DNA of 63,988 bases, filler included, from Octopus bimaculoides (Eukaryota), in assembly GCF_001194135.2 (NCBI RefSeq). It is 10 parts of 8 records of this genome, joined end to end, with 100 filler letters (N's around TTAATTAATTAA, not from the genome) between each part and the next. Parts side by side here need not be neighbours in the genome. Positions count along the whole stretch, not along the records: positions 1 to 8,966 come from NC_068987.1; positions 9,067 to 16,658 come from NC_069002.1; positions 16,759 to 19,302 come from NC_068982.1; positions 19,403 to 37,232 come from NC_069001.1; positions 37,333 to 40,867 come from NC_068984.1; positions 40,968 to 49,906 come from NC_068982.1; 4 more parts are not named here. One strand, written 5' to 3'. Positions 3,486-49,280 of the stretch are shown in pieces; the stretch's first letter is position 1; every line of letters starts with the position of its first letter. The notes under the pieces were generated by a model, which saw nothing but the letters and a program-made list of their open reading frames with translations, made no database searches and had not been told where the DNA came from. Both the position numbers and the translations under genes were made by a program.

Positions 3486-3779
3486 GGAGACATCGTCTCC
3501 AATGGCTTTCCAACACGATCTGTGTCCTTATATTTTCAAACAAGGGAATCTAGCCCCCCCCCCACCACCACCACCACCACCACTCAGCTCAAAACAATAT
3601 CTGTGTATCGCAATTTCCAGGTTATTTCCCGAACAATTATTCTGTGCTGATGAAGGGAAATAACTCAGAAATCATGATACACAGATATTGTTTTGAGCTG
3701 AGTGGGGGTGCTAGATTCCCTTGTTTGAAAATATAAGGACACAGATCGTGTCGCATTGCCAGCTGGAGACGATGTCCCC
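3486..3779. repeat. Head-to-head inverted repeat (arms about 125-145 bp) around a hammerhead motif, resembling a Penelope pseudo-LTR
   Basis: 3486-3609 is the reverse complement of 3676-3779, with a (CCA)n expansion in the left arm. Looser pairing continues inward to 3630/3655. Confidence 0.85.
3641..3685 (+). ncRNA. Minimal type I hammerhead ribozyme motif
   Basis: UCUGUG CUGAUGA A GGG-AAAUAA-CUC A GAAA U CAUG A UA / CACAGA. It has a 6-bp helix I, a palindromic AUCAUGAU helix III and an AUA triplet; positions 10.1/11.1 are an A-A mismatch. Confidence 0.65.
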
Positions 3780-3937
3780 ACAGATATCATTATGGTTTCG
3801 ACACCTAGGTAGTACCATTCAATCCGGCAATGTCAACAGCACTAAAGTAAGTGTTGTTTGGGAACGAAACACACACGCTCATATATGTGTGTGTGTGTGT
3901 GTGTGTGTATATGTATGTATGTATATATATATATATG

Positions 3938-3983
<46 letters not shown>

Positions 3984-5156
3984 CATGTGTATCTTTGTGT
4001 CTGAGTTTGTCTCTCCACTACTGCTTGATGACTGGTGTTGGTTTGTTTACATCTCTGTAACTTACCAGTTCAACAAAAGAAACTGATAGGATAAGTAACA
4101 ATCTAAGAGCTGGAGTTGATTTGTTCACCTAAAATTCATCAGCTGGGGTTGATTTNNNNNNNNNNNNNNNNNNNNNNNNNNNNNNNNNNNNNNNNNNNNN
4201 NNNNNNNNNNNNNNNNAAGAAGAGTCAACCTCATTCTTTGACCAGTTCTTTATTGTTTAACGCTAAAAGACAAAACTGACCACTATGCCATTCAAATTCA
4301 GAGAAGTGAAACCTGTCACAATTACCACAAGGTATTCCATCAGATTCTCTAATATATTTCTGCTAATTTACCATTTTCTTATAGGTAAGAACAAACAAAA
4401 TTAAATACATTATCAAAGTTTTCTTTTCTGAGAATTTTCCAAGTTTTATCTAATGAAATTAGATAAAACTTGTTTTTCTGACTAATTATATATATATATT
4501 TCTTTATCCTAGTTATTTTTGGTTATTATTATTTTTATTTTTATTTTCTAATTAGCTTTTTCTAATAATATAATTTCAGCTAATCTTTGAAGTAATTTAA
4601 TTTAGCAAGTTGCTAGAACTTGCACTGAATCATTGATACAGAAATATTACCCTTGAACATTTTTAAGTTTGAACTTCTAAGAAATTACGAAAACCACTGA
4701 TTGGATTAGTTGCATTTCAGATTTAGAATCTACTAATCTAGACTCAAAAATTTGTTGTCATTCATTTTGTATTTTGTTTTGTTTTTTCCTTCATTACTTC
4801 ATCAGGAGAAAGTGAAAAGTCACTGACCTTTTTCTTAGAATCTTATGCTTCAGGAAAAGAAACCCATTTATCAGACATCTATTGTTTCTTCCTTTATCTT
4901 TTACTTGTTTCAGCCACTGGACTGTGGCCATGCTGGGACACCTCCTTCAAGAGTTTAGTCAAACAAATCACACACCCCACCAAGTACTTATATTTAAGTC
5001 TGGACTTATTCTATTGGTCTCTTTTGCTAAACCACTTAGCTATGGAGACATAAAAAGACCCTGCCCCATATATATACATATATATATAGGCGTAGGTGTG
5101 GCTGTGTGGTTCCAGGTTCAATCCCACTCTGCAGCACCTTGGGCAAGGGTCTTTTA

Positions 5157-6216
5157 TTAGGTTGTTCCGAAAATAATGGCCACTTTAAGTGTTGTGTTTT
5201 GAAACACAATTTTATCATAGTATTTTACTTATATTTTAGGTGAATTTCAACATACTTTATAATTGATGTATGCTCTTTAATAATGTTCTGCTTATTTCAG
5301 ACAGAAAACATTCTTGAAACATAGGCACCTTTAAATATGAACATGACAAAAAAGGACCTTCGCTTATTCTTCTTGCATGAGTTCAAGCTTGGGCACAATG
5401 TCTCCCAAACTGCTGCCAATATCAACAGAGCATGGGGAGAAGGGTCCACAAGTGATTGCACAGTACGAAGGTGGTTTCAGAAATTCCAGAGTGGTGATGA
5501 GAGTTTTGAAGATGAAGAAGGTAGAGGATGGTCATGCAATCTGGATAATGAACAAGTGAAAGCAATTGTTGAACAAAACCCATGTCAAAGTGTCAGAGAA
5601 GTGTCTCAGGCACTTGATGTTAGTATTGCAATGGTCTCATGCAATCTACAGAAGATTGGTAAGGTGGAAAAGCTCAATAAATGGGTACCACATAAACTCA
5701 ATGAAAATCAAAAACTTTGGCGTTTTGAAGTGTGCTCAATGTTCTTTCTGTGAAACACTAATGATCCTTTTCTTGACCGAATAGTCACTTGTGACGAAAA
5801 GTGGATCCTTTATGATAACCATAAACAATCAGGTCAATGGCTTGATCGTGATGAGCCCCCAAACATTTCCCAAAGCCAAAGATTATGGTAACTGTCTGGT
5901 GGTCTGCAATTTGTGTTGTCCATTACAGCAGAGATTTACTGCAATCAATTCGCTGAAATGCATGCTCACTTGCAAAAACTGAAATCGGTGTGGCCTAATT
6001 CTGCTCCACGATAATGCAAAGCCACATGTTGCAAGAATGATGCTGCAGAGACTCACAGACTTGGAATACGAGACTTTACCACATCCTCCATATTCTCCTG
6101 ATCTTTCCCCCACTGACTACCATTTTTTTAAGCATTTAAACACGTTTTTAAGTGATAAAACTTCCAGGTCCAAACCAGAGATGGAATCAGCTTTCAAAGA
6201 TTTATTAGCATCAAAG
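5157..6216 (+). mobile_element. mariner (DD34D) transposon, defective; 3' end lost in a gap
   Basis: TA followed by the TIR ttaggttgttccgaaaataatggcc. HTH N-terminus from 5337, WVPHKL, TCDEKW, and HDNAKPH...YSPDLSPTDY with 34 residues between the last two D. Stop at 5751 and frameshifts. Confidence 0.92.
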
Positions 6217-6273
6217 NNNNNNNNNNAACTAAAGCCTTGTGAGTGGATTTGGTAGAGGGAAACTGAAAGAAGC

Positions 6274-6318
<45 letters not shown>

Positions 6319-7234
6319 ATGGTAAGAAACTTGCTTCCCAACCACGTGGTTCCGGGTTCAGTCCCACTGCATGGCACCTTGGGCAAGTGTTTTCTGCTAT
6401 AGCCTCAGGCCAACCAAAGCTTTGTGAGTAGATTTGGTAGACGGAAACTGAAAGAAGTCCATCATGTGTGTGTGTGTTTGTGTGTGTGTTTGTCACCCCA
6501 CCATTGCTTAACAACCGATGTTGGTGTGTTTACGTCGCCATAACTTAGTAGTTCAGCAAACTTTCTGGATATGATAAAGTTATACTGCACTAAATGCCGT
6601 TATTCTTTGATTCTTTTCTTCCTACACAGAGGCACAAAATTCCAACATCTTAAATATGATAAATCTCAGTATTTCATTTGTCTGTATTCCTTAAAAGTGT
6701 TCCCTGCAGAAAAGAGCCACAATGAGGGACAATCTTCTACTATTTCTTGCACTCAAAAAAACCATTCACAGGAATCTTATTGAAATAACCTGTGATTGGT
6801 CAGTAAGAATCCTATTTAAACACAATTAACTATCATATGTAATAATCAACTATCATTAACAAATACATGTAATAATTAAAAAATAAAATTAATTGCTCAG
6901 TTTAATCAAATATCTACAGGTAGTTCTTACTTTCTGAACTTCCAATTTACACATTTACATCTTTACAAGAAATTTTTGTGATAAAATTTAAAAAATAAAG
7001 TTTCATAATTTTTTTAAAACCTGTATGCATCTCAACGCATGTTGCCTAAAAATGACATACAAGGGAATGTGCCTATCAGCTGAGCCAGAGGAAAAAATTA
7101 CAGCATTGAAAGTCAGCAGCCCATAGCTTTCCTTGCTCAGCACTGGTTATAGGAAGTTTCACCATAAACATTTTTAACACAGACAAATTCAGCATAAAAA
7201 TTTTTTTTTAAATTACAAAAAGAAAAATATTAAC

Positions 7235-7655
7235 TGGCCGTTGCCAGTACTACCTGACTGGCCTTCGTGCCGGTGGCACGTAAAAGCACCCACTACACTC
7301 TCGGAGTGGTTGGCGTTAGGAAGGGCATCCAGCTGTAGAAACTCTACCATACATATGACTGATTTCCTATCCACCACATGGTCTATTTCCAGTCCTTCAC
7401 ATGGTTAATTTCCTGTTCACCATGCAGTATTTTCCAACTAACTTTTACCCATATACCAACATCAAACCACGACACCGTGTGATCTTTCTTGACCAATCAT
7501 AACATGGCAGTCCTGGTTTAGGACGAATGTTGAAACTCTGCCAAATTAGATTGGAGCCTGGTGTAGAGATCTGGTTCGCTAGTCCTCAGTCAAATCGTCC
7601 AACCCATGCTAGCATGGAAAGCGGACGTTAAATGATGATGATGATGATGATGATG
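7235..7655 (+). mobile_element. RTE-type LINE 3' tail ending in (GAT)n, interrupted by an insert of about 180 bp
   Basis: Matches the uninterrupted minus-strand copy at 36931-37232 (ggcgttaggaagggcatccagctgtagaaactctgccaaat...ggacgttaaa(tga)n). Confidence 0.75.
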
Positions 7656-8139
7656 CAACTTCATCTGCTAACCTTCCAATTACAGAAAGGTAATTTCTTT
7701 AAAATGAGTTTTCTAGTTTACAGTCTGCTTCCTCTATGGTGAAATTTCCTCAGGCAAATTTTCCAAAGGGCAAAATATTTTAAGGTGAATTTTCTGGATA
7801 TGGCTTAGTGCCATCATATTTACTCTAATTCAATGTTCTGTTCCCAACGAACATTAATGAGACGTTTTCCAAGAGTGCCTCTCTTTGTTAATGATTTCTA
7901 TGGAATAAAAATAATAACTCCCACTAAACAAGCTATTGATTAATGAGTGTTAATTAGAAATGAGAACTACTTGTCTGCATGAACACCCAAGTACAAACGA
8001 GCTGAGAGAAAAACTGGGTATAAGAGGAATCAGGTGTAATATGTAAGAGAGAAAGAGAGGGAGAGAGAGAGAGAGAAGGCTGTGCTGGTCTGAACATGTG
8101 GTGTGCATGGAGGATGAGTGCTATATAAGGAAGTATTGA

Positions 8140-8490
8140 GTACTGAGGATACCCCCTTCGGTCATGACTGACCATGGGATTGCACCTACAAAGTTACCCT
8201 CCCAGGTACAAGTCCCGGCAAGGTGGTTTATGGAAGGCCAGCAGTCGCCCATGCATACCAGCCTCCCCTCTCTATGCCACTGATGTTATCCAAGGGAAAG
8301 GCAAAGGGGCCGATACAGCTTGGCACCAGTGATCTTGCAACTCATTTCTACAGCTGAGTGAACTGAAGCAACGTGAAATAATGAGTCATGCTCAAGAACA
8401 CAACATGCAGCCCTATCTGGGAATCAAACTCACAACCTCACAATCATAAGCTCGATACTCTAACCACTGAGCCATGCGCTTTCACTGAGT
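8140..8490 (-). mobile_element. tRNA-derived SINE (family D)
   Basis: Minus-strand head gcgcatggctcagtggttagag...gagtttgattcc; body collinear with 60863-61205. Confidence 0.75.
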
Positions 8491-8651
8491 CCTACAAGTA
8501 AATGAAACCTGTTGAAGAAGGAGGCCAAAGAAGAGTTGGTTAGCCCAAGGCTATAGCAGAAGACACTTGCCCAAGGTGTCATGCAGTGGGACTGAACCAA
8601 GAACCATGTGGTTGGGAAGCAAGCTTCTTACCACACAGCCAAGCCTGTGCC

Positions 8652-8966
8652 TGACTGGTGTAGCAGCACCATAGTCAACTGCTACAAAGGTAAAGGTGAC
8701 GCTTTAGATACAAATAATTACAGAGGCATCAAGCTGTTAGATCAGGTTATGAAAGTTACGAAGAGGGTCATAGCCCAACTAATTAGGGAGCGAATCAATT
8801 TAGATGAGATGCAGTTTAGGTTTGTGCCAGGTAAAAGCACCACTGATGCCGTATTTCTAGTGAGACAGCTGCAGGAGAAATACCTAGCCAAGGATAAACC
8901 TCTGTACCTGGCCTTCATTGACATGGAGAAAGCCTTTGACAGGGTCCCCCGATCCCTTATCTGGTG
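8652..8966 (+). pseudogene. RTE-clade reverse transcriptase fragment
   Basis: YKGKGDALDTNNYRGIKLL...QFRFVPGKSTTDAVF...LAFIDMEKAFDRVPR. Confidence 0.9.
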
Positions 8967-9010
8967 NNNNNNNNNNNNNNNNNNNNNNNNNNNNNNNNNN
9001 NNNNNNNNNN

Positions 9011-9022
9011 TTAATTAATTAA
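9011..9022. other. Assembly gap marker TTAATTAATTAA between 44-N spacers; also at 16703, 19347, 37277, 40912, 49951, 56207, 61299 and 62893
   Basis: Identical 12-mer centred in N blocks of about 100 bp (44+12+44 counted at 8967-9066), nine times; stop codons in all six frames. Confidence 0.92.
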
Positions 9023-9075
9023 NNNNNNNNNNNNNNNNNNNNNNNNNNNNNNNNNNNNNNNNNNNNTTTATACAC

Positions 9076-9112
<37 letters not shown>

Positions 9113-10022
9113 CATATATATATACATATATATATATATACATACTATATACTTCACTGCTATATCTCTCTCTTACTCTCCCTTCCTGTCTCTCGTCGCT
9201 CACCTATGTTCAAATTCCTTCCTTTTCCTCTCTCTACCACTCCTCCTGGATCACACGTGACCTGTGGTCACCCGTTCCTTTCTCCATTCGGCCAGCATAA
9301 AGGCAGCACGAACTGCTATCTCTCTCTGCTCAAGTTCGTCACATCACAGCGTTCAGTATCTCATCTCGTTCGGCTTAACGGCCCTCAACGTTGTTTTCAC
9401 TGTTTAGTTTTCCCTGTTTTGGTTTCTGTTTGCCACTTTGGAATCCTCCGCATAGCAGGTTTTATTTAATTTGCTTTGCGGGAAAAGCTATTCTAAGAGG
9501 GCGTTCTGCCTCATCTTCGAAACGCCTAGTTTAGAAATGAGGCAGCTGGGTGAAGGAAAAGTTCCATACGTGGCTTGTNNNNNNNNNNNNNNNNNNNNNN
9601 NNNNNNNNNNNNNNNNNNNNNNNNNNNNNNNNNNNNNNNNNNNNNNNNNNNNNNNNNNNNNNNNNNNNNNNNNNNNNNNNNNNNNNNNNNNNNNNNNNNN
9701 NNNNNNNNNNNNNNNNNNNNNNNNNNNNNNNNNNNNNNNNNNNNNNNNNNNNNNNNNNNNNNNNNNNNNNNNNNNNNNNNNNNNNNNNNNNNNNNNNNNN
9801 NNNNNNNNNNNNNNNNNNNNNNNNNNNNNNNNNNNNNNNNNNNNNNNNNNNNNNNNNNNNNNNNNNNNNNNNNNNNNNNNNNNNNNNNNNNNNNNNNNNN
9901 NNNNNNNNNNNNNNTGTATGTATATGTATGTATATGTATGTATAAAATATATTTGCCGACTAAATGTGATGAAAATACCAATACATACAGCTTTAAATGC
10001 GATCGCAAACAACAACAACAGC

Positions 10023-10055
<33 letters not shown>

Positions 10056-10585
10056 AACAACAACAACAACAACAACAATAATAATAATAATAATCCTTTC
10101 TACTAAAGGCACAAGGCCTGAAATTTTGCGGGAGGGAAGTTGTCGATTACATTGACCCCAGTGTTTCACTGGTACTCAAAACAAAAAATTGGCAGAGCAC
10201 CTCAAAAACATACGTCCTGAAGGTATCGAGAAGCTACTTGGGCATGTCAAACAATTGAAGAAGAGAGTTCGAATTCACTTATTCAAGTATCAGTCAGAAA
10301 CCAGCAAAAAGGAGCACGAAATCGAAGTTTGTAAAGAACTTATTATTTTTTTTAATCGCAAATGAATCTCGACCGCAAACTTACGTTTGTGTAGAGTTAT
10401 TGATGTCAGCCATTGGACCATATCTGTGGATAATGTAAAACAAGAAAAAGAACAGAGGCAAGTCCTGGGCATAGAACACGGTTTATAGAGGTTACTAGAT
10501 GTGAGGGTTACTGGTAGAGGGTTACTGGTAGAGGGTTACTGGTACACAAAGTACTGGGTATAGAGGGCCCTCGGTTTAGAGGGTT

Positions 10586-11120
10586 GGGTATTGATGGCTG
10601 TGTGGTTAAGAAGATCGATTTGCAGCCTCGTGGGTTCGAGTCCAGTACCACTGCGCGGCATCGTGGGTAAATGTCTTCTACTATGGCCTAGAGCCGACCA
10701 ATGCCTTGTGAGGGAATGTCACTGAAGGAAACTGTGTGGAAGCCCGTTTGACATACATGCATACATGCACACGTACATGTACATGTTTGTATGTGTGTGT
10801 GCGTGTGCGAGTGTGCGTGTGCGAGTGTGTGTGTGTGCGCGAGTGAATGTGTGTGCCTGTGCGAGTATGTGTGTGTGTGTGTGCGTGCGAGTGCATGTGT
10901 GTGTGCGTGCGAGTGTGTGTGTGTTTGTCTTCACCGCTTTTCGACCGGTGTTGATTTGTTTACATCCCCGTAACTCAGCGGTTCGGCAAAAGAGACCCGA
11001 CGGAATAAGTACAAGATTTAAAGAAATGAGTCCTGGAGTCGATTTGTTAAACTAAGACCCTTGAAGGCAGTGCCCCAGCTTGGCCGCAGTCCAGAGACTG
11101 TCACAAGTAAAAGGTAAACG
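10586..11120 (+). mobile_element. SINE family A, diverged, with internal (GT)n
   Basis: ggctgtgtgg head, ggttcgagtcc B-box, internal microsatellite and the family's 3' tail. Confidence 0.7.
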
Positions 11121-11508
11121 ATTAAGATTAAAGGAGGATCCGTGTGTAATGTCCTGAATATAGAGAAGAGTTCCAAGTCTTTATTCTCACTGATATTGTC
11201 GTCGTTCACACCATTCTGGGATTCGTCTCACCATTATCGCTAGAATTTCCATTGTCTTGCCTGGTTTGTCTTCGGTCAACACTCTCCCAACAACGCCATG
11301 CAAACTAATCTCAGTGTCTCCAGACCATGGCTAACACCGTCACCAGAGTCTTCGATTGAGACAGACTTAAACAATATCTAAATGAAAACCTTAACTGTTT
11401 AATTAGAAAGCCAGACTTAATTAGTTAATTTGGAGATTTAATGAATTGAAATGTGGAAACAGGTTTTGTGGTTTTCTCGGAGGTTTAAAGGACAGATGAG
11501 CCAGTCAT

Positions 11509-12322
11509 CTACTCATGGTGCTCTAATCGATTCCTTTGACTGCTCCAGCAAGTAGGACAAGCCTGAGGCAACTGTGTGAACTGGAGGCGGAAAACATGGA
11601 AATCAGTGTCGGGACAAAACGGTCCTGGGTTTTCGGAAATTTTCTCAGTAAATCCCAATTCAGGAATTAAATTCAAATTCTTGCCATTCTGAACACAGAA
11701 ACCGTTCAAAGAAAAATTTTTCTTTAATCTTTTCTCGAGAAAAACCCCAAACGGCAATCCATCCGTGGCAAGGGCGTTGGCCATTTGACATGTCTTGGCA
11801 GAGAGTTTCATCATAGCCAGTTCTGCATTTGATACGTGACCTGGGTATTTCTGTTTAGGGGTTAGATTACTGAACACTGTTTCTTTAGAATGGGGCGAGG
11901 AAACTTGGCTATGGACAACAGGTTTTTCTTCAAGAGTAACAGATGGAATCAAGAGAGTATTGTAGTTAGACCATGATGGAAATCTCAAAGTAGACATGAC
12001 AGTACTTCCAGGAATTGCGTCGTTGTTGGGATCAGGTAGTTTAGAATTTTCGGTGGAATTCGTGCGATAATTCTCGATTCCAACACGTTCGGTTGTGTTG
12101 GAATAATCGAATGCCTTGCAGTCAGCAACGCTGCCATTCTTTACCGAAGAAATAACTATTTTGTCGATATTCCCGGGAATATTACTGTCTTTAGCAACGG
12201 TGCTACTGCAGACAACTTGAAGAACATTCAAGTCTTTCGAAATCGTAGAATTAATGGCATTGGTATTTGTCACATCGTTTTCATCATTTTCTGATAGCTG
12301 AGTCTCATTTCCGGATAACTGT
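11509..12322 (-). CDS. Candidate coding exon (about 270 codons, S/N/T-rich), possibly a 3' exon of the taperin-like gene
   Basis: Long open frame preceded by a strong polypyrimidine acceptor (ttttttttttccag at 12324-12323); stop at 11509-11511. It starts in phase 2, so it cannot join directly to the phase-0 donor at 21009. No recognised domain. Confidence 0.55.
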
Positions 12323-32257: not shown

Positions 32258-32328
<71 letters not shown>

Positions 32329-32335
32329 ATATATA

Positions 32336-32525: not shown

Positions 32526-32570
<45 letters not shown>

Positions 32571-34378: not shown

Positions 34379-34409
<31 letters not shown>

Positions 34410-36081: not shown

Positions 36082-36297
36082 AATCCTTTCTACTATAGGC
36101 ACAAGGCCTGAAATTTTGGTGGAAGGGACTAGTCGATTACATCGACCCAGTATTTCACTGGTATTTAATTTATCGACCCTGAAAGGATGAAAGGCAAAGT
36201 TGACCTCGGCGGAATTTGAACTCAGAACATTCTGACAGGAGAAATGCCGCTAAGCATTTTGCCTGGTGTGCTAACAGTTCTGCTAGCTTGCCGCCTT
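36082..36297 (-). mobile_element. SINE family B, near full length, between (TAA)n tracts
   Basis: Minus strand aaggcggcaagctagcagaa...gagttcaaattcc...agtagaaaggatta. Confidence 0.8.
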
Positions 36298-36901: not shown

Positions 36902-36930
<29 letters not shown>

Positions 36931-36932
<2 letters not shown>

Positions 36933-37232
36933 CATCATCATCATCATCATCATTGTTTAACGTCCGCTTTCCATGCTAGCATGGGTTGGACGACTTGACT
37001 GAGGACTGGTGAAACCGGATGGCAACACCAGGCTCCAATCTAAATTTGGCAGAGTTTCTACAGCTGGATGCCCTTCCTAACGCCAACCACTCAGAGAGTG
37101 TAGTAGGTGCTTTTACGTGTCACCTGCACGAAGGCCAGTCAGGCGATACTGGCAACGGCCATGCTTGAAATGGTGTCTTTTATGTGCCACCCGCACAAGC
37201 CAGTCCAGGGGCACTGGCAACGATCTCGCTCG
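36931..37232 (-). mobile_element. RTE-type LINE 3' tail
   Basis: Same sequence as 7235-7655 without the insert; (TGA)n tail. Confidence 0.75.
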
Positions 37233-37629
37233 NNNNNNNNNNNNNNNNNNNNNNNNNNNNNNNNNNNNNNNNNNNNTTAATTAATTAANNNNNNNNNNNN
37301 NNNNNNNNNNNNNNNNNNNNNNNNNNNNNNNNTTGCTCGTAGCGTAGTTTTTTAAGGCTAGCAGATCGGTATTCATCTGTATTTTTTTTGTTGATAGATT
37401 TATTTCCGAGCATAGTGTATTTTTGTGTGTGTGTGTGTGGCGTTTTAAACTTATGAATGGTTCACTGTCTGTGTTTGTTCACAAAATGAAAATAAATAAA
37501 GAAGAAAAAAAAAAGTTTTGGTTTTGCTTCGTTTGTGATATGTGTTTTCGTATGCGTGAGTGTGTCCTGTGATTTTCACGTAGTTGTGTAAACATTAAGA
37601 TGCATGTGTAGTTCTATGGGTATCAAAAC

Positions 37630-37679
<50 letters not shown>

Positions 37680-37682
<3 letters not shown>

Positions 37683-40050
37683 CACTCAACAGATTAGACT
37701 GTTGCAAAAGAAAATAATCCTAACATCGGGCTATAACAAGTTGCCTTAGAACCCATCTATCGGGTTACAGCAAGTAACCTTAGATGCCAAGAACCCTCCT
37801 AAGTATCCTAGCTGTCCCTAATAACAGTTTTCAGATCTTTAGGGATAGTTCCCAATGCACCAATAACTACTGGGATACATTTTACCAGCACTTTCCATAG
37901 TCTCTGTAATTCAATAGCTAGGTCCTGGTGNNNNNNNNNNCCAGCACTTTCCATAGTCTCTGTAATTCAATAGCTAGGTCCTGGTGCTTTGCTATTTTTT
38001 CTATACTTTTCATATTAATTTTTTCATCATTTGGGACTGTAAAGTCAATTTTCTGGCACTTTCTATTCTCTTTATCTACCAAATCAGGCCTTCTAGCTTC
38101 TATTACCCTGTAAGTCTGAAAGTTAAAGTTCCACAACAACTTGTACTGCTTACTTTCTAGTACTTTTATTAGGTTCATGTTCATACCATTTATCAGTATG
38201 TTCAAATCCTAGCTTTCTACAAAGCTCCCAGTGGATTGCTCTCCCTAGATTGTCATGTGTTTTCTTGTATTCTTTCTGTGCCAGCATGCTACATTCACTT
38301 ACTATATGAGTAACACTTTCCTCTTCTGATTTGCATAATCTACATTGGGAATCTACTTCGTTTTTGTCTATTTTGGATTTTATCCAGTTGGTCTTTAATG
38401 CTTGATCTTATGCAGCTATGAACAAACTTTCTCTTTCCCTCTTCAGCTTTCACTTCTGCAGCCATAACTATGTCTCACTACTACTATTTTCTGAAACTAT
38501 CTTTGGGAATCCGCCATTCAATGCCTCCTCCTGCCAGTCAGCTAATTTCTGTTCTTTTTCTGGTTTTTAAGTTTGTTTGGTCTTTTGGTTTCCCTATGTC
38601 TTGCTGTGACTCTAGCAGCTTTTAATAAACTTTCTTCACTATTACCTACATAGGAGTCTACATCTACTCTAGCTAATTTCATGCAGTCTTCCACTGATTA
38701 ACCTCTCTTCTACTGATTAACCACTCTTCTACCTTCCTTTCTAGGTAGGTATAATCTTGCTACTCCTGCTCTTGGGTGGAATCCTCCATTCATATTGAAT
38801 TCCTTCCTAGTTCTTCTGTCTAGCTTTGCTAATTCAGTTTTTGTTCAGTCTACAAAAGTTGCTAAATATCTAAGTAATGATACTGCCCAAGTATTTACAA
38901 CCTTCACTAGATTTGGACCATTTAGCTTTGACTTCATTAGCTTCCTTGCCCTTCTGATGTACTCCTTCTCAATTTTTGTTTTCATTTCTGTAGTTAGTAC
39001 TCTATCAGATTCTAATACTCCTAGATATTTAAAACTCTCTCCTCTTTTCAATGATTTTAATGTCTGGCCATCTGGTAATTGGATGCCTTTGCTGTTGACT
39101 ACCTAACCCTTCTCATGACTAATATTGCACAATTATCTATGCCAAATTCCATGCCAATATCTTTGCTGAAGAGTCTTACAGTCTGTATTAAGGAATCTAT
39201 TTCTTTTTTATTCTTACTAAAAAGTTTCAGATCAACCATGTAGAGCAAATGGTTAATTTTTTTCATTACTATTTCTGAACTGATACCCTGCCTTTGCCTT
39301 CCTTAATGCTAAACTGAGGGGGATCAAACATAGAACAAATATTAAAGAGAACAATGAGTCCCCCTGGAAAATACCTTTTTTAATATTAACTTTCCCTACG
39401 AGTGTGTCACCTGAGTATAGATCTACTTTCCATTTCTTCATGCTAAAGCTAATTAATTCTCTTATGTTGTCTGCTATACTGAACATACTCAAACATTCGC
39501 TTATCCATGAGAGTATATGTCATAGGCTTTCCTATAATCTATCCATGCTATTGTTATATTTTTCTTTCTAACTTTTACTTCATTTAGAACTGCTTTATCT
39601 ATATATAATAGATCATGCGTTCCTCTAGCCTTCTTTCTACAACCTTTCTGTTCTTCTGGTAGTAAATTCTGGTTGTCAATGTGCTCATAAATGCGTTCTG
39701 AAAGCATTCCTCTTAACAGCTTGGTAAGCAAGTGATTGGTCTATAGTTATCCTTCATAGTTGCTAGTGATTGGTCTATAGTTATCCCTCATAATGAGTAT
39801 TGTACTCTCTCTAGTCATCCAATTTGGTATTATTCCCTCATTAAGGAAATCCTGAAGTTGTTCCCTCAGCCTCCCACGTAAACTACTGAATTTCTTTTGC
39901 TAGTACCTTTGAACTAAATCTGGTCCTGAGCCCTTCCAATTCGGCATTTTTGCAAACAATTTAATGCACTAGTTAATCATAGATCTGATTGCTTCTCACT
40001 ACTTCTTCCCTTACTTTATTTAACCATACTGCATTTCCATTATGATTGAC
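37680..40050 (-). mobile_element. R4/Dong-clade non-LTR retrotransposon (RT, CCHC, restriction-like endonuclease), 5' truncated and decayed
   Basis: EEQKGCRKK...AWIDYRKAYD; KKGIFQGDSL; FKYLGVLE; CKSEEESVTHIVSEC; IEARRPD...IDFTVP. The 3' end abuts (TAA)n at 37631-37680. Confidence 0.88.
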
Positions 40051-40158
40051 TGGTTTGTGCAGCTGGATTGATGTAATGATTGCATTGTTCACTTGAATGG
40101 AGCTGCTTGAAGCAGCCGTGCTGCATCACTTCTTGATGTCCTGTTGCTTATTTTGATT

Positions 40159-40790
40159 TCAAATTTCCTAGACGTAACATTAGATATTAAGAATAAAACA
40201 TATAGACCCCTAACGAACCTACAGTATATAAATAAATTAAGTAACCATCCTAGGGCTATCATAGAGAATCTAGTTTAAAATATATCTTTAAGACTATCCA
40301 AATTATCTGCTAACAATAGGGTATTTAATAATGAAGCTAATTTCTATAATGCAGCACTGAAGGCAGGATATAGAGAAAGGGTTTCCTATATTGAAAATGA
40401 CAGCAACGGAATTGAAATAACTGACAGTAGTAATAATAATAATAATAATAATAATAAGAGAAAATAAACTAAATAAACCAAGGTACCTCCATAAACACAA
40501 CATAGGTAACTTAAAATTCTTTAAAAACGATATTAATAACCATGAGGATAATAATAAGGATAATAAAATCTGGCTCATAATCCCATTTGGGAGAAATATC
40601 AAGAGTAACTTGATAGCTAAGTTTAGAGAGGTGATAGGTAGACACTTCCCAAGGAGCTCACACTATGGTAAGATTATCAACACACACATAATTAGATTTG
40701 GATTTTCAAATACTAGGAACATAGCACAAATAATAGTAGCACATAACCTTAAAATACTTAAGTCTAAAGAAACAGGTAGGAATGAGAATT
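40159..40790 (+). pseudogene. Penelope-like element RT thumb/linker fragment
   Basis: NFLDVTLDIKNKTYRP...YINKLSNHPRAII...ANNRVFN; IWLIIPFGRNIKSNLIAKFREVIGRHFP...NTRNIAQIIVAHNLKIL. Confidence 0.75.
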
Positions 40791-40811
40791 TGAACAATAA
40801 TATAAATAGCA

Positions 40812-40855
<44 letters not shown>

Positions 40856-41062
40856 AATGATAACAATNNNNNNNNNNNNNNNNNNNNNNNNNNNNNNNNN
40901 NNNNNNNNNNNTTAATTAATTAANNNNNNNNNNNNNNNNNNNNNNNNNNNNNNNNNNNNNNNNNNNNCCTTCCCCCTCCCAAAAAGAAAAGCTCTACATT
41001 GTATTTGTCCCATCTTCGTTGAGCCCTGTGTGGCTAATAAAAGAAATGTATCTATCTATCTA

Positions 41063-41099
<37 letters not shown>

Positions 41100-41104
41100 T
41101 TGCC

Positions 41105-44100
41105 TGTCTGTCTGTGGCCACAGGGGGAAGGTGAAAAAAGAATAGAGGAGCAAACAAACAAAGCAGGGAGGTTCACCACTCCTGAAACCAAAACACCCGC
41201 AGAAAACAAAAGCATTAACACAAATACACAAACACCAAATGGCCCCACAATGTTGACAGCTATAAACACTAACAATGCATACCTCATGGAATACATTAGG
41301 TCAAACATCAGCACAACAGAAAACGATACCAAAACAAATAATTACCCAAGCACTACAACACCGCAACACATTAAACTCATACATATAACACAGAACACAC
41401 ACGACACATTGAAATCTCTCTACCCGGATGCAGTAGAGAGATTTCAAAAATGCCTTTCTAAAAAACTGTTCAAAAACCTTCTGGGAGAAGACTGTGAGGT
41501 GAAGGGCAAACGACTTTCGAACAGTAAGTGACTCTTTTTCTCTCATTCTCTTTCGTCCTACTTCCGTGTGTAAAACACAACTTTCGATAGGAACATGCTC
41601 AGAATAGGTTGTATAAATGTACGTAGCTTGGAGTCGCCTTGAAAACAAGGCTACCTATTAAATGACATCCAGTCACAGAATGTGAATATTATAGCCATCA
41701 ATGAGACCAAATTCCACAACTCACGGGCCCTTCAGCGCATGTTCGGCGGACATTTCGACATTTATTTTTTTCCGTGTCTGCCGGGAATGAGCGGAGGTGG
41801 TACCGCGGTGCTTCTTCGGAAGAGTCTGGACGTTAATGTAAGAGTAATATTCCTAGACCCTGGTAGGCTGGTCGTCTTGGATGTCGATGGCAATAAATGG
41901 GTGTGCTTTTCAACTGATAACAGTTTATGCACCGTCATTAACAGGTCGGCCATAGATTTCTTTCGACGTCAAGAGGTTTTCCTGGGAACGTCTCGACCTT
42001 TACTTTTAGTGGGGGATTGGAACGCTACCTTGGACACGCATCTAGACTACGTGAGCAGAGATAGTAATAGGACCAAGACTTCAACTACAAACGCGAAGGA
42101 TGCGTTGTCAGAGCTAGGATGCTTGCTCTGAGGAACAAAGGAGTTGGAGCCGGCCGAGACGCCCGCGTGGCGGTGGCGCAACGAAGAAACAAAGCCACCA
42201 TTATATCTCTGAAAAGGGCGCGAATTACTCGAGCCCGAAAGGATGTGTGAGGCCTTTCAACAATACGTTGTCCGACTGTTCGGGTCAACTGGTGGGTTAG
42301 AACGCAGAGTTGACATTAGTGCCTACCTGCATGGCCTGCCGCGACTTTCGACAAGAGGGGTGGAGTGTTGTGAAAGACCCATCACTGACGCGGACGTATG
42401 GGATGCGATGCCAAACTTGTATGGACGCGTCTTGGCAGCGGTCTACTGCAGCTGGCAGCAAAACAGGAGTATTCCCGTTTCTGTGAAGCGAACTGGAACC
42501 CTGCTAAATAAAGATCCAAACAAGGGGAACGTCATAGATAACTTCAGGCCATCACTCTGCTCAACGCAGATTTGGAAATTTTGGCCAAAGTGCAAGCCGA
42601 GAGGTTGGCGCTTGTCATTGAGAAACAGATAGACAAAACGCAAACAAGCACTGTGCTGCGCAGGCGTATCCATGACAACATGCATCTGATGCGCTACATC
42701 ATAGACAAGTTAGTTAAGGAACCTGGCATGGGTGGGGCGCTGATCAATTTGGATCAATCGAAAGCTTTCGATAGGGTCAACCATCGCTACTTGGAGGCTG
42801 TCCTTAGAGCGGCCGCTTTCGGTCCCGTCTTCCGCGATTGGATCGCTGCCTTATCTAGTGGCATCCGCTCGGTAGTTCGCGTAAATGGTGATCTGTCACG
42901 CGCGCGGTCCGTGAAGGATGCCCACTCTCGGCCCTTCTGTACGTATTAACTCTAGAACCACTACTGCGGAAGCTGGCGACGCTGAGGGGCATCTCGCGAG
43001 AACTGGGATGCGGGAGGAGCGTGTCTCCATACGCGGACGACGTCTCTGTGATAGTGTCGAGCTACAGGCATATCGACCTGGTCGGCAAGACACTAAAAGA
43101 ATACGAAGCGGTAACGCGAGCGAAAATTAACCGGGAAAAGTCACTGGGCTTGCGGCTCGGCACCTAGAGAAGCAAGCCCATGCTGTCCAACGGCGTCTCC
43201 ATCGTGGAACGCTGGGCAGACGGGCCGGTTAAATTGCTAGGAGTCTGGTTCGGTCCGGACCTCCAAATGGAGAAGAACTTGCACGAGATAACGAGTAGAG
43301 TGGTCACCCTCACCCAGCAATGGCCCGAGAGGAAGCTATCTCTAAAAGGGAGGGTTGAAGTGACCCACGCGTACATTGCATCCGTCATCAATTACCGTCC
43401 GACCCTTGTGCCTTGTTCCGACCCTACCATCACCAACCTGGAACTCATACTCTACCGCTTTTGTGGAAGGGAAGCGTTCCGATAGTTAGGCGATCCATTT
43501 GCTGTCAACACCCACTAAATGGATGGCTGGGCATGTCGTGGTTGATGATGAGCAGACTGCGAAATCTCCAGCTCTTCATAGACGACGGTGAATATGTGTG
43601 GTCACCGTTTGTGAGGCGCCCTTTCCCACAGCTCGTCTTTTTCGCCGAACTGTAGTCGTGGATCAAACAGAGACCGAGACTAGGCGAATGGCACAGCGAG
43701 TGCCGCCTTGCTCTCAAGCAACTCTGCCGTCCGGAACCAAACTTGTGTGACTTCAATTCCACGAAGGCGTTCTATAGAGGATTAGTGGAGGGAAGGTACA
43801 ACGACGTTCTCGGGGAGAATCTGGGCGTCGGCGTGGAACACCTGACCCGCCTGTTCAGGACAACATTCAAGCCGGGACCTATGGACAATCACCAGAGATC
43901 CCTGACCTGGCAGTGCTATCGAGAAGCATTGCTCGTTTGGGATAAGTTCTATAGGCACGGTTCGAGATACACCGGACCGACTTGCCCGAGATGCGGTCAG
44001 AGGGACGAAACCGTTCTGCACGCACTCGTGCAGTGTCCAACCAATTTCGGACCTGTAGGCTTATGCCGAACGGCTGCTGTCACGTGTGGGATGAATTCGG

Positions 44101-44230
44101 TTGTGGGCCGGGTCTATCATGAAAATTGCTACGCCACCTTCCCTTAACCGGGAAGGTAAGGCAGTTTTCATCGTACTGGTGGCCGTGGTGAAAGAATGTG
44201 TAGGGTGGAGTCGAGCGAAAGGTTTAGAGA
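41105..44230 (+). mobile_element. Tx1/L1-group LINE (putative ORF1 C-terminus to 41531; ORF2 from ATG 41595), with frameshifts and an internal deletion
   Basis: RIGCINVRSL...IIAINETK; VGDWNATLD; LDQSKAFDRVNH; PYADDVSV; KLLGVWFG; CPRCGQRDETVLHALVQC. Confidence 0.88.
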
Positions 44231-44343
44231 CAAACCCTTGCCTCTCATATTTTCATATATTTTACTTTTATTGACAACAAAGAGGTAAATTAGAAATAAT
44301 CCATTTCTAAATCTCACAGAAAGACTTTAGCAGTGGTGATGCG

Positions 44344-44693
44344 ATAAAGTAGTTGTATACCGTCAACTTAACGTGACAGTCCTAATAAGGAACTAATTTT
44401 TGTAATCAGTGAATGTGTTTCGCTAGAAATATATATGTTTACGAGAGCTTGACAGGCATCTAAAGAGAATTAGTCATGCTACTTCAGGCTGATGACGAGC
44501 AAAAACTCAGAAACATGTCCCTGAACGCAGGCTAGGCTGGGTGGAGGTGCTTGTCTCCCCATCGTAAACATAAGGACACAGGAAATGTGTCAAGGCCGAC
44601 AGGAATCGGTCCAGCTTCCTAGGGCTAAATAGCAGTAGCATGATTCCTTTATTGGGACTGTCACGTTAAGTTGACAGTCTACAACTACTTTAT
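44344..44693. mobile_element. 350-bp non-autonomous element with 45-bp terminal inverted repeats and an internal hammerhead motif
   Basis: 44344-44388 vs the reverse complement of 44649-44693 match at 42/45 positions; no coding capacity. Confidence 0.8.
44483..44525 (+). ncRNA. Minimal type I hammerhead ribozyme motif
   Basis: UUCAGG CUGAUGA C GAG-CAAAAA-CUC A GAAA C AU G UC / CCUGAA. It has a 6-bp helix I, a palindromic ACAUGU helix III and a canonical GUC triplet; positions 10.1/11.1 are a C-A mismatch. Confidence 0.7.
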
Positions 44694-44722
44694 ATATATA
44701 TAAATATATATATATATACACA

Positions 44723-45354
44723 CAGAGGGTGTTCAAAAGGTCTATCTGCAGTAAGTATTTTATTGGTATAAGACTACAAAATAAGGTGACGAGCTGGCAG
44801 AATCGTGGTATTTCGTGTCTTTACATTCTGAGTTCAAATTCACCCGATGTCGACTTCGGCTTTCATCATTTCGGGCTCGATAAATTAAGTACCAGTTACA
44901 TATTGATGTCGATATAATCGACTGACTCCCCTCCAAAAAGATTTCGAGCCTTATGCCTAGAGTAGAAAAGGTATATGACTACAAAAGATTATATTAGTTT
45001 CGTCTGAAAGAACAGTAGGCCTACCACTTCTTTGTACGTCCTCCAATGAGCCTGTGTTTCTAAATTTTCTTATCAAATTCCGCACAGTGTCACAATGGGG
45101 AACAACAGTATTTGGAAAATTTCACTGAACTTCTGTTTCACAGTATCTGTGTATTTGTTTCCAGCTCGAAACACCAATTCAACTAAAAAAGTACGTTCTT
45201 CAATGGTTAACATGTCACGTAGAAGGGTAAAACAATGACTGAGGGAGAATGGCTGACACCCGGCTGCCCACGCATTGACAGCCAAGTTGCGCATGCGCAT
45301 GCGCATGCGCAGGAGGAAACAATTCACTGGGGAGAGACTTATTGAACACCCTAT
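44723..45354 (-). mobile_element. Internally deleted mariner-like element keeping the transposase N-terminus, with a family-B SINE inserted at 44782-44971
   Basis: Inverted ends agggtgttcaa(a/t)a(g/a)gtct; MLTIEERTFLVELVF...TVRNLIRKFRNTGSLEDVQRSGRP. Confidence 0.7.
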
Positions 45355-45831
45355 ATGTATACTTCTTTCCGTTTCCGTCTATCAAATCCACTCAAATGGC
45401 TCTGGTCGGCCCGAGGTTATGGTAGGTGACATTTGTCCAAGGTGTGAAGCAATGAGACTGAACACAAAACTATATGGTTGGGAACGAAGCTTTTTACCCC
45501 ACAGACACCCCCGTGTCTAATATATTTATATTCTAATCATATTTCCTTTGGCAACTCGTAGTCGTTTCATAATTAATACTGAAAACAGCAATGTGACATA
45601 AAGGATATAATATTAAGATACCGTGGTATCATGCAAAATGAAATATAGGATTAACTGAAATATGCTAAATTCTGAATTACAATCACATTTGCTCTATCAC
45701 CACATTTCCCCACTATGAAGCCTGCAAATTGAAAAAGTCACTAATTCACTTACAAGGATTCACCAGGCTAAACTCTTTTTCTTGAAGAAATAAGAATCAT
45801 TAAAAATAAAAAATAAAAAAGTCCTTCTATA

Positions 45832-45999
45832 GGCGCAGGAATGGCTGTGCGGTAAGTAGCTTGCTTACCAACCACATGATTCCGGGTTCAGTCCCACTGC
45901 GTGGCACCTTGGGCCAGTGTCTTCTACTATAGCCTCGGGGTGACCAAAGCCTTGTGAGTGGATTTGGTAGACGGAAACTGAAAGCTTCTCGTACACACG

Positions 46000-46090
<91 letters not shown>

Positions 46091-46326
46091 GCACACATAT
46101 ATGTATATATGTGCGTGTATGCATGTTTGCTTGTATTCGTTTCCCCACCATCGCTTGACAACCGATGCTGGAGTGTTTACATCTCCGTAACCTATCAATT
46201 CGGCCAAAAGTGACCGATATAATATAAACTAGGCTTACAATGAATAAGTCCGGGTTGGGGGTGCATTAGTTCGACTCCAAGATGGCCGCAGTCAAATGAC
46301 TGAAAGAGATAGAAGAATAAAAGAAT
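45832..46326 (+). mobile_element. SINE family A with a long internal (CA)n
   Basis: Head, core, (CA)n at about 46002-46087, and tail. Confidence 0.85.
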
Positions 46327-47145
46327 ATTGTTCCTATCAAATTCTTGGCAATATATTTTAAGAACACAATTTCAGTATCTGAATTTCAGAAATATTTTAA
46401 AGACATATTAATGGTTATTAGAGGAACAACGTCACAATTTTTGTGAGATAATTTCATTTAGAGTGAAATGCAATTCCTTGCAGCGACACAATATATTATA
46501 TGCACATTAAAGTGGAGAACTGGAAGAGAAAGAGGGCGAGAGAGAGAGACACACACACACACAGAAGACTGTAAAGGAGAGCGGGGGAGAAAAAGAGTAT
46601 TAGAGAAGGATGGAGGAAGAAAAGAGTATGTGACTCTCTGTACTGTTTTTTCCTGCATCCTTCTCTAATTCCCTTTTTTCTACCCTCTACCGTTTTTTCT
46701 CTCTCTCTCCTTGCTCACACGTGACCATCGTCCATCTTTCTTTTCCTCATGTGACCATCTTTCTTTTCCTGCATGGACGTTCTCCTCCCTCTCTTTTATC
46801 TTTTCAAACAAAGTGTCTCTCACAGCGTTCACTATTTTCCTTTCGTTCTGGCCTAACGGCTCTCTATGTTTGTTTTTGTTTGGTTTCCTTGTATGTCTCC
46901 ACTGTCACCTTTTTGTAACCTACATTGACCCTCCAAAAATCCAAAATTTTATTTTAGAATTTATGGGAGCAACTGTCTTTGAAGACTCATATTTTGGTTG
47001 AATGCTCGAAATGAGGAGTAGATAGACAGCCGACAACTGATAAAGCGTCCTTTCTCTGTGTTAACTTGTCCTGTTTTCCATTCTTCTCTCATTGTTTACA
47101 TATTTCATGTCATTTGTACCGTTGGCGATGTCCTGTAGCCCTATA

Positions 47146-47188
<43 letters not shown>

Positions 47189-47203
47189 GCATATTCATTT
47201 ATA

Positions 47204-47680
47204 CAAGGTGTGATGGGTGAATTGTCGCTATCTTATATTTGCATTTTGCGCATGCGCATCGTTTGTTTTTGTTAGTGTCGACTACATCGTATAGTAGGTT
47301 TAGTTGGGCACCCTCTGTTAGAAAAACACAACAATGACACAATTTGCTCTGCTAGAAATTTGGAAACTACATGCTGTACTGCTTGGCATTCGCGCCTGAA
47401 GCTCCAGTACGAACATTTCAGAGTTTTGGGGTGTCAATCTGAGGCCATGTAACAAGAGGGATAAAAATCAAACATCCAGACAACAGTATGCTGTTTGGAG
47501 TAATAGCTAGTTATGGTCATGTTATGCCTTCATTCGTCATTCCACACGGTCTCAGGGACAACACGGAGGCCCACCTCAAATGCCTGGGGGGAAGTAGCGC
47601 AATCATTTCTGTGACCACATCACCTCTAACATCTGGCCATCTAACTCGCCAGACTGCAACCCGCTTGATTATTACGTTAT
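47204..47680 (+). mobile_element. Deleted maT/DD37D-like transposon
   Basis: TA followed by caaggtgtg at the 5' end; KHPDNSMLFGVIASYGHVMP; IWPSNSPDCNPLDYY. Confidence 0.7.
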
Positions 47681-47778
47681 GCGAATGTAAACATACTGAC
47701 ACCGATTTTTAAGCAGTGGGGGGACAAACACAGACGTAAAGATACTCCCGTATACACAAACACAAGCACACACAAACA

Positions 47779-47865
<87 letters not shown>

Positions 47866-48173
47866 TTATGTGTAATTGAAATGACTTATATATGTTTCGA
47901 CCAAATATTGGTCTAGGCCGTGTCTAACGTAATAGCACCACCTGCTAGGATTAACTAAATTCGTTTTGGTGTATCATGGTCCATTTGAGTAGGGAGTTCT
48001 TGTTGTGGGAGTTGCATCCAGGTATAGGTGGCTTGTCTGGTATTCCTTGAAGAAATTTGTCCAAATTCCATTGTGAGATAATGGGACCCTTTACCTTTTT
48101 TTATCTGTTTCGGGACAATGTTAAATAGGGCAGGGTTTCCTGAGGAAAAGACATTGTCTTGCAATGTATTTAC

Positions 48174-48214
<41 letters not shown>

Positions 48215-49234
48215 TACGTACGACCGACTTCTTTCAGTTTCCGTCTACCGAATGACTGCATAAAATTTGGGTTGGTCCAAGGTTATAGTAAAAGATACTT
48301 ACCCAAGGTGACATGCAGTGATACTGAACCCGAAACTATGTGGTCGGGAAGCAAATTTTTACGACACATTGGCCTGCGCCAATGTGTACATATATGTATG
48401 AATGTGTGTTCGTTCCGATGCGCGTTCGTATACTTACCTATTTCTCAGTAGTTCCGCTAATTAGAGTTAAGAATCTGTAGTATCATCTTCAAACGTCTTA
48501 GTCAATTATGTCGTTCCTACTATCTCGTGTGATAGACTTTCGATTTTCTTTCATCGAATGGCTGAACCGTCTTGTTGTATCACCCGTCTGTAAACACTGA
48601 AAGGAATTCCCCTATTTATGTCAATATAAACCAATATTGACATATATGTACACACACATACACATACACTCACAACTGTATACACCTAACTTCCTAGCAG
48701 TTGCCATCCATCAGATTTCACAAGTCATTATTCTATGTGACAATCAACTAGAAGATGCTTGCCCTGGGTATCGCATTGCGAGACACTACACGCAACCACG
48801 TGATTGCGGAGTGAAGTTCTTAATCATACAGCCATGTCTTACGTTGTTTTTCATTTGTCTGTCTTTCACGTAAAAGTACAAATGTGTTCAATACACATAT
48901 TTCTTAAGATTATGTGCACACCTTTGTAATTGTATTGCAGTTAAAATTATTATATCCTGATAATGAAAGAATACGTGCTATCGACTCTACAGTCAACCAC
49001 ATTCATCACCGAATTCAAAATTGTAAAAATGATGCTTAGGATATTTAAATAAGTTGGACACATTTTATAAGTAATTGAGTAGTTGACGTGGATATTCGAC
49101 TATTCCGAAAATACCAGAAGGTAGTTCTGTCTTCAAGTTAATAAGAAGCAGTGTTTAAGTTCAGTTCTATATTGAAGAAATGAGGAATTATTTACATTAT
49201 TTACATTTGACAGATATTTGTTCTCATTTTTTTT

Positions 49235-49280
49235 GTTAACGCGTTTCGGCTGATATACTCTCGAGCTTTCATCAGGTGTC
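49235..49280 (-). ncRNA. Degenerate hammerhead-like motif
   Basis: Minus strand GACAC CUGAUGA AAGCU...AGCC GAAA CGCG UU. The core and palindromic helix III are present, but helix I does not pair in this copy. Confidence 0.4.

What the first reader, a model, noticed from the sequence alone, without database searches (positions are those of the whole stretch)
3641..49280. Several dissimilar repeat elements share one atypical hammerhead architecture (A before GAAA, palindromic mini helix III, inverted-repeat context)
Seen: five motifs in 64 kb (3641, 16929, 18692, 44483, 49235) with flanks that look unrelated by eye. Four have an unpaired A immediately 5' of GAAA. Four have a self-complementary helix III (AUCAUGAU, ACGCGU, ACAUGU, ACGCGU). 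The three best-formed copies all lie within inverted repeats. Known: palindromic helix III permits dimeric cleavage in minimal metazoan hammerheads. Inference: a diverse, high-copy ribozyme-bearing retroelement system in this genome, perhaps with a lineage-specific core variant. I cannot say from here whether it has been described.
Basis: partly seen in the sequence, partly recalled or inferred. Interest (0 to 1): 0.72.

Follow-up and report, generated by a model that had tools for sequence, protein, structure and literature searches.

The report
Hammerhead repeats with mismatched helix-II base
The five motifs are worn copies of five abundant repeat families, likely spread by Penelope-type jumping genes, each carrying a known small self-cutting RNA motif; the odd base before GAAA is an inherited A in two families, a private change from G in two and absent in one, and it likely replaces a normally paired position rather than being an extra base, with cutting untested.

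Summary
The motifs are real: 3 of 5 pass a hammerhead descriptor against 0.045 per shuffle. A random genome sample gave 14 hits in 687 kb against 0.2. The five are copies of five families. 3641 and 44483 are sister ~350-nt circularly permuted units, 61-67% identical, so not unrelated. 16929 is a 541-nt unit; 18692 and 49235 are 3' ends of Penelope-like elements (PLEs). The unpaired base is inherited, but it is A only in the 44483 and 16929 families; the 3641 and 18692 families mostly have G (58/100, 17/19). 49235 is a decayed canonical motif. The 14-nt spacer, 6-nt loop and U1.7 match a canonical G-C family of the same genome, so the base likely is position 11.1 in a C.A, A.A, A.G or U-A pair; only 16929 is a true bulge. 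Palindromic helix III, inverted copies and an optional 'extra N11' are published PLE features; a U.U mismatch here is published for axolotl. No trace of cutting was found. The scan noted both traits before in other genomes. Verdict: a high-copy, untested variant of a known kind.

The parts
3641..3686 (+). Family F1 type I hammerhead: helix I 3641-3646/3680-3685, core 3647-3653, A10.1 3654, 3-bp stem with 6-nt loop, base 11.1 at 3667 (A here, G in most family copies), GAAA 3668-3671, palindromic helix III, predicted cut after 3679, U1.7 3686
3629..3779 (+). F1 element, 5'-truncated forward copy of a ~350-nt circularly permuted unit
3415..3628 (-). Inverted copy of the F1 3' end placed 5' of the forward copy (PLE-type inversion)
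16929..16986 (-). Family F3 hammerhead: no base after A9, GG/CC stem, true bulged A at 16945 before GAAA, extended helix II, helix III ACGCGU, predicted cut after 16935
16762..17015 (-). F3 element, ribozyme-bearing copy ending in a (TA)n tract; unit about 541 nt, circularly permuted
17014..17368 (+). Inverted partner copy of F3 with an internal deletion; keeps only the CUGAUGA half (17122-17128)
18367..18800 (+). Family F4: 3' end of a GIY-YIG-bearing PLE; hammerhead 18691-18738 with U4C core, 7-bp helix II, A10.1 opposite 18722 (A here, G in 17 of 19 family copies), helix III damaged in this copy
44483..44526 (+). Family F2 hammerhead: helix I 44483-44488/44520-44525, core 44489-44495, C10.1 44496, A11.1 44509 (family state), helix III ACAUGU, predicted cut after 44519
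44393..44693 (+). F2 element, ~347-352-nt unit, sister of F1
44322..44392 (-). Short inverted copy of the F2 3' end
49162..49305 (-). Family F5: decayed copy of the commonest, canonical minimal PLE hammerhead (base after A9, G10.1-C11.1, helix III ACGU); core 49275-49269; no extra base before GAAA

Best explanation
The motifs are type I hammerheads at the ends of repeats likely copied by Penelope-like element (PLE) enzymes, and the odd base before GAAA is an inherited purine that likely sits in the 11.1 slot of helix II as a non-Watson-Crick partner of 10.1 (C.A, A.A, A.G, sometimes U-A), except at 16929 where it is a true bulge. Shown: five families; F1, F2 and F3 are ORF-less units of about 350 and 541 nt with partial direct repeats, clustered 3' ends, variable 5' ends and 5' inverted copies; F4 and F5 lie downstream of PLE ORF remnants. 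Inferred: read-through of a tandem or partial-tandem copy is cut at H17, probably by two copies pairing their palindromic helix III; the monomer is ligated to a circle; a PLE RT/GIY-YIG protein primes at a fixed site 165-205 nt past the cut site, often in (TA)n, runs up to a little over one unit, and leaves truncations and inversions. Inferred structure: 10.1.11.1 forms a sheared (trans Hoogsteen/sugar-edge) pair stacking on G12.A9, keeping helix II at canonical length so that loop-2 A L6 still meets U1.7. Cleavage is predicted to be slower than canonical and dimer-dependent.
For: Register: a canonical G10.1-Y11.1 family in the same genome has the same 14-nt spacer, 6-nt loop ending in A and U1.7 (11 loci with a 14-nt spacer from L300-L311 plus two in L299). 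Exact 14-nt-spacer patterns: 1986 vs 30 control, 460 vs 8; counted by eye in the first 100 printed rows, 11.1 = A in 76 and 87. In 30 unselected loci: 10.2-10.4 paired in 26, 23, 23 of 30, L6 = A 29 of 30, U1.7 23 of 30. In 13 hand-picked representatives two of the three inner pairs change on both sides and the third is G-C/G-U in all 13, while 10.1.11.1 is unpaired in 8 and U-A in 5. F2 chosen by its 3' half only: A in 28 of 28 readable of 30; no other letter at 3% or more in contigs of three other organism labels or in RNA reads. F3: A in all 18 loci with the motif, of 20. Element anatomy; circular folds z -4.1 to -8.8 (40 shuffles each). PLE link: F4 upstream ORF remnants shared by L289, L290, L292 (89-92% over ~400 bp), similar to an L107 piece that matches GIY-YIG clusters at 0.96; F5 lies 160 nt past an RT-EN ORF in L131. 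tHS A.G and A.A are isosteric (PMC8450098, passages); C.A in the same group and the sheared G12.A9 pair are recalled.
Against: No cleavage assay. No footprint of cutting: 0 of 30 F2 5' ends lie at the cut site (range -5 to -210); RNA-seq reads lie on both strands with no piled ends. None of the five window copies folds better than shuffles (z -0.1 to -1.6), and the predicted lowest-energy folds of F1 and F2 are not the hammerhead (in F2, C10.1 pairs G12). Perreault 2011 says U.U is the best tolerated mismatch here, so others should be slower. Helix I pairing in the old class is weak (111 of 180, shuffled mean 96.7, maximum 115). No autonomous partner was found for F1-F3. Pfam gave no hit for the three PLE pieces tested, so clade names rest on recalled motifs. 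'Mismatch' and 'two insertions' are not separable by sequence alone.
Confidence: 0.65

Rival explanations
1. Two independent insertions: the known base after A9 plus an extra base before G12, around an intact G10.1-C11.1 pair of a 3-bp helix II.
For: The pair next to the odd bases is G-C in 12 and G-U in 1 of 13. F3 has the A with no base after A9. F4 has the long helix II and short helix I of minimal PLE motifs. The published descriptor has 'extra N10' and 'extra N11'.
Against: The spacer is exactly the canonical 14 nt with the same loop and U1.7 as the G-C family of this genome; U10.1 exceeds what CpG decay gives (TG 25 vs CA 7, p = 0.002, counted by eye, test), so some masters likely had a true U-A pair; only 2 F1 copies lack the base.
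Confidence: 0.2
2. The mismatch disables the ribozyme; the families spread by PLE enzymes regardless, carrying a dead motif.
For: No cut-site footprint; Naiad PLEs spread without canonical hammerheads (PMC8557442, passages); minimal PLE motifs cleave poorly in vitro (PMC4209133).
Against: Core bases, compensated helix II, L6 A, U1.7 and a palindromic helix III of different sequence are kept across lineages only 60-70% alike; the axolotl U.U motif still cleaves (22% in 1 h as monomer, more as dimer).
Confidence: 0.12
3. The A is a by-product of mutation decay in dead copies.
For: True for single copies: in F1 rows with AGGG, CA 19 vs TG 20 of 77 is symmetric CpG decay from G (by eye); F4 has G in 17 of 19.
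Against: Decay cannot add a base: 293 vs 2. A is fixed in F2, F3 and the old class.
Confidence: 0.03

Closest known systems
Metazoan non-LTR retrozymes (Cervera and de la Pena 2020, PMC7229834), esp. axolotl HHR_Amex2/Rtz_353 and the 350-390-bp mussel units
   Same: Type I hammerhead in an ORF-less ~350-nt, low-GC, strongly self-paired unit; weak palindromic helix III; a mismatch at the base of helix II (U.U in Amex2, one of two groups of ~60,000 motifs).
   Different: Mismatch is C.A, A.A or A.G; copies here are mostly dispersed, 5'-truncated and inverted, with few tandems; circles and cleavage not shown.
Minimal hammerheads in PLE pseudo-LTRs (Cervera and de la Pena 2014, PMC4209133)
   Same: Base after A9, palindromic helix III, opposite-strand pairs 100-700 bp apart; F5 fits fully; descriptor allows 'extra N11'; 1 of 56 representatives reads AGAAA (29th line, by file order the Cotesia bracovirus PLE; PDF layout uncertain).
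   Different: There the extra base is a rarity and G10.1-C11.1 is called highly conserved; here whole families of hundreds to thousands of copies carry it; F4 adds U4C.
PLE insertion anatomy (Craig et al. 2021, PMC8557442) and retrozymes as non-autonomous PLE derivatives (Li et al., bioRxiv 10.64898/2026.07.22.740005)
   Same: 5' truncation, partial tandems, inverted 5' copy, tail at one end, (TA)n targets, solo monomers.
   Different: No partner PLE identified for F1-F3; octopus not among the passages found in Li et al.
Natural U10.1-U11.1 hammerhead (Perreault et al. 2011, PMC3088659)
   Same: Non-paired 10.1.11.1 in a natural motif.
   Different: Rare there; that study rejected hits with a mispair at 10.1-11.1 from its final alignments, so this class would have been filtered out.

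Membership tests
Type I hammerhead ribozyme | Core C3 U4 G5 A6 N7 G8 A9 / G12 A13 A14 A15.1 / U16.1 H17 | tested here: met
   F1, F2, F3, F5; F4 has C4 in 19 of 19
Type I hammerhead ribozyme | Watson-Crick R10.1-Y11.1 pair closing helix II | tested here: not met
   F1, F2, F4 and the old class have N.A or A.G; met in F5, and in F3 with a bulged A
Type I hammerhead ribozyme | Three helices with covariation; loop-2 A L6 and U1.7 | tested here: met
   (helix I support weak in old copies)
Type I hammerhead ribozyme | Match to an Rfam hammerhead model | tested here: not met
   0 gathering-level hits on 8 loci; none among the 150 of 270 rows shown for the window
Type I hammerhead ribozyme | Site-specific self-cleavage | not testable with these tools
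   No assay; indirect tests gave nothing
Non-LTR retrozyme (F1, F2, F3) | ORF-less 150-400-nt unit with one hammerhead, self-paired as a circle | tested here: met
   F1 350-353, F2 347-352 nt, circular z -4.1 to -8.8; F3 541 nt is longer than the published range
Non-LTR retrozyme (F1, F2, F3) | Tandem arrays with two or more hammerheads | tested here: inconclusive
   One F1 dimer, 350 nt apart (L153); mostly partial tandems and solo copies
Non-LTR retrozyme (F1, F2, F3) | Abundant circular and linear monomer RNA | tested here: inconclusive
   F2 reads on both strands, 70-78% running on into unlike sequence; joints back to the unit start also fit genomic partial tandems
Penelope-like element (F4, F5) | RT plus GIY-YIG ORF upstream of a hammerhead-bearing 3' end | tested here: met
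   F4: L289, L290, L292; F5: L131; ORFs are broken remnants, Pfam silent
Penelope-like element (insertion mode, all families) | Fixed 3' end, 5' truncation, inverted 5' copy, partial tandem | tested here: met
Penelope-like element (F4, F5) | Clade placement by RT phylogeny | not tested
   No reference RTs at hand

The most novel reading that the evidence does not exclude
An active hammerhead subtype in which the usually invariant G10.1-C11.1 pair is replaced by a sheared C.A, A.A or A.G pair that extends the G12.A9 stack, kept by at least five retroelement lineages and thousands of copies in this genome, found in other animals too, missed by searches that demand the pair, and used to tune cleavage down so that only dimers cut.
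Probability: 0.35. Interest if true: 0.6.

Novelty: new variant of a known kind. Interest (0 to 1): 0.36.

Why it matters
If these motifs cut, the most conserved variable pair of the hammerhead can be swapped for a purine mismatch at scale, which widens the consensus, means descriptor-based censuses undercount animal hammerheads (5 of 14 random hits here are of this type), and offers natural isosteric series (A.G, A.A, C.A, U-A, G-C) for kinetics. The retroelement system itself is known biology.

Tried and rejected
Rfam: window scan gave microsatellite-driven miRNA hits only in the rows shown; 0 hits on 8 loci. Sequencing runs: no RNA holder listed on record; a loose end at the cut position in 12 reads of X21 is a diverged copy of the normal downstream sequence, not a junction. 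Metagenome scan for the F2-like pattern: 8 matches, most without helix I or II; only L257 has repeat context; not used. Viral contigs: 0. A PLE ORF remnant upstream of F3 in L069 is separated by an N gap and (TA)n and seen at one locus only: rejected as a partner. No PLE ORF was found near 20 loci picked for the odd motif. F3 is not detectably related to F1/F2 (z -0.4 to -1.5). 'Inverted repeat as part of the ribozyme' rejected: opposite-strand copies cannot form the helix III dimer. Not available: Lunse et al. 2017 (PMC5785218), Nelson and Uhlenbeck 2008, Arkhipova 2017; the supplement of PMC7229834 and file 1 of PMC4209133; any of these may already show this variant.
Full report
Observation. 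The window is a pack of ten stretches of a 2.34-Gb animal genome, probably an octopus (SINE look recalled). A hammerhead descriptor finds 3647+, 44489+ and 16980-; shuffles give 0.045, 0 of 200 reaching 3. 18692 and 49235 are degenerate. Inverted repeats surround the three good copies and not the other two. In 80 evenly picked 10-kb stretches (687,460 non-N bases) a similar descriptor gave 14 hits against 0.2 in 20 shuffles, about 20 per Mb (95% CI 11-34), so the window is not enriched (P = 0.12). Genome-wide exact patterns: 6127 vs 643 reversed control, 2021 vs 155.

Five families. F1 (3641; 2098 first-look candidates) and F2 (44483; 2676) are ORF-less units of 350-353 and 347-352 nt, seen as partial direct repeats and one tandem dimer, with clustered 3' ends, variable 5' ends and frequent 5' inverted copies. 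They are sisters: 61-67% identical outside the ribozyme, z 12-14. F3 (16929; 379) is an unrelated 541-nt unit in (TA)n with the same inverted layout. All five units tested fold as circles far better than shuffles (z -4.1 to -8.8). F4 (18692; 2505) is the 3' end of a longer element; three of ten extended loci share colinear endonuclease-like ORF remnants upstream and L289 has an inverted hammerhead end 5' of the ORF; the query that detects them matches GIY-YIG clusters at 0.96. F5 (49235) is the commonest motif, canonical, and lies 160 nt past an RT-EN ORF in L131. This anatomy is that described for PLE insertions (PMC8557442, passages).

The base before GAAA. F1: 293 copies have it, 2 lack it; by eye in the first 100 rows G 58, A 41, C 1, and in the AGGG subtype CA 19 vs TG 20, symmetric CpG decay from G; the window copy has also lost both helix III CpGs, so its A is probably decay. 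F4: G in 17 of 19 copies chosen by an upstream query. F2: A in 28 of 28 readable of 30 copies chosen by the 3' half, and no other letter at 3% in contigs of three other organism labels (contigs drop rare variants). F3: A in all 18 of 20 loci with the motif. F5: none. An older, diverse class adds 460 matches vs 8: A in 87 of the first 100, facing U 36, C 24, A 22, G 5 (by eye; one row is a microsatellite).

Mismatch, not insertion. F1, F2 and the old class have 14 nt between CUGAUGA and GAAA: one base, three pairs, a 6-nt loop ending in A (29 of 30), one base, with U1.7 in 23 of 30. A G10.1-Y11.1 family in the same genome has the same spacer, loop and U1.7. Two inner pairs covary across 13 hand-picked representatives while the outer position is unpaired in 8 and U-A in 5 (relatedness inflates the shuffle test). 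So the base likely is 11.1. A.G and A.A are isosteric sheared pairs (PMC8450098, passages); C.A in the same group, the sheared G12.A9 pair and the L6-U1.7 contact are recalled. The third sheared pair is my inference. F3 has GG/CC directly after A9, so its A is a true bulge.

Mechanism. Shown: anatomy, inheritance, palindromic helix III with self-duplex energies of -4.6 to -11.1 kcal/mol for F1-F4 and the old class. Inferred: dimer-assisted cutting of tandem transcripts, circles, PLE-driven reverse transcription from a fixed site. Against activity: 0 of 30 5' ends at the cut site; RNA reads on both strands without piled ends (about 6 in 100 of each run read); window copies fold no better than shuffles; predicted lowest-energy folds are not the hammerhead.

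Known relatives. Cervera and de la Pena 2014 (PMC4209133; main text parts 1-2 of 4, supplement file 2 parts 1-2 and passages): minimal PLE hammerheads, palindromic helix III, opposite-strand pairs, descriptor with 'a possible extra N11', one AGAAA among 56. Cervera and de la Pena 2020 (PMC7229834; passages and section 14; supplement unreadable): 350-390-bp mussel retrozymes, axolotl Amex2 with U.U at the base of helix II, still cleaving. Perreault 2011 (PMC3088659; section 8 and passages): natural U10.1-U11.1, other mispairs filtered out. Li et al. bioRxiv (part 1 of 5 and passages): retrozymes derive from PLEs. PMC6765202: passages only. Searches showed no paper on a high-copy C.A, A.A or A.G class or on cephalopod retrozymes; Lunse et al. 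2017 could not be read. Earlier AI notes report octopus retrozymes and PLE ends in this genome and the extra A or a C.A mismatch in other genomes; they are leads, not support.

Verdict. Observation partly confirmed; interpretation partly supported. Known system, with an inherited, under-described and untested variant of one core-adjacent pair. Novelty: new variant of a known kind. Interest 0.36; 0.6 if the sheared-pair subtype proves active (probability 0.35).

Noticed in passing
window:18695-18701; L221-L250: Family F4 has C instead of U at core position 4 in 19 of 19 copies chosen by an upstream query, on top of the A.G mismatch: a double core variant at the 3' end of a PLE.
   Followed up: partly
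window:49317-49395 (+) and L131 (- strand, just past the ORF): A tRNA-like segment followed by (AAT)n sits next to the F5 hammerhead end; in L131 it lies between the PLE ORF stop and the hammerhead. ARAGORN calls no tRNA.
   Followed up: partly
G000, rows: An F1 subtype with AGAG on the 5' side of helix II (23 of the first 100 rows, by eye) mostly has A at 11.1, so an A-bearing master probably also existed in F1.
   Followed up: no
L130:9165 (+), L147:924 (+), L085:8198 (+): Further hammerheads with U.U, A.C and C.A at the base of helix II in the random sample; L085 is distantly related to F1.
   Followed up: partly
L167: A relative of F3 has A after A9 and A or U before GAAA, so F3's bulge may have arisen by loss of the 10.1 base.
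   Followed up: no
window:20953-23154 (-): 734-aa open frame, probably a host exon; no Pfam hit at E 0.01.
   Followed up: partly
window:50009-50767 (+), 43656-44144 (+), 49560-49906 (+), 51372-51920 (+): LINE remnants (Exo_endo_phos, zf-RVT), an RT-like piece and a Tc1/mariner-like frame (last two by recalled motifs).
   Followed up: no
window, e.g. 17430-17590, 44790-44970: SINEs that look like the octopus OR and OK families (recalled); the genome is 2.34 Gb in 145,327 contigs, consistent with an octopus.
   Followed up: no
L257: A metagenome contig has the same A.A motif with a direct repeat 260 nt on and an inverted flank, possibly an animal element of this kind.
   Followed up: no
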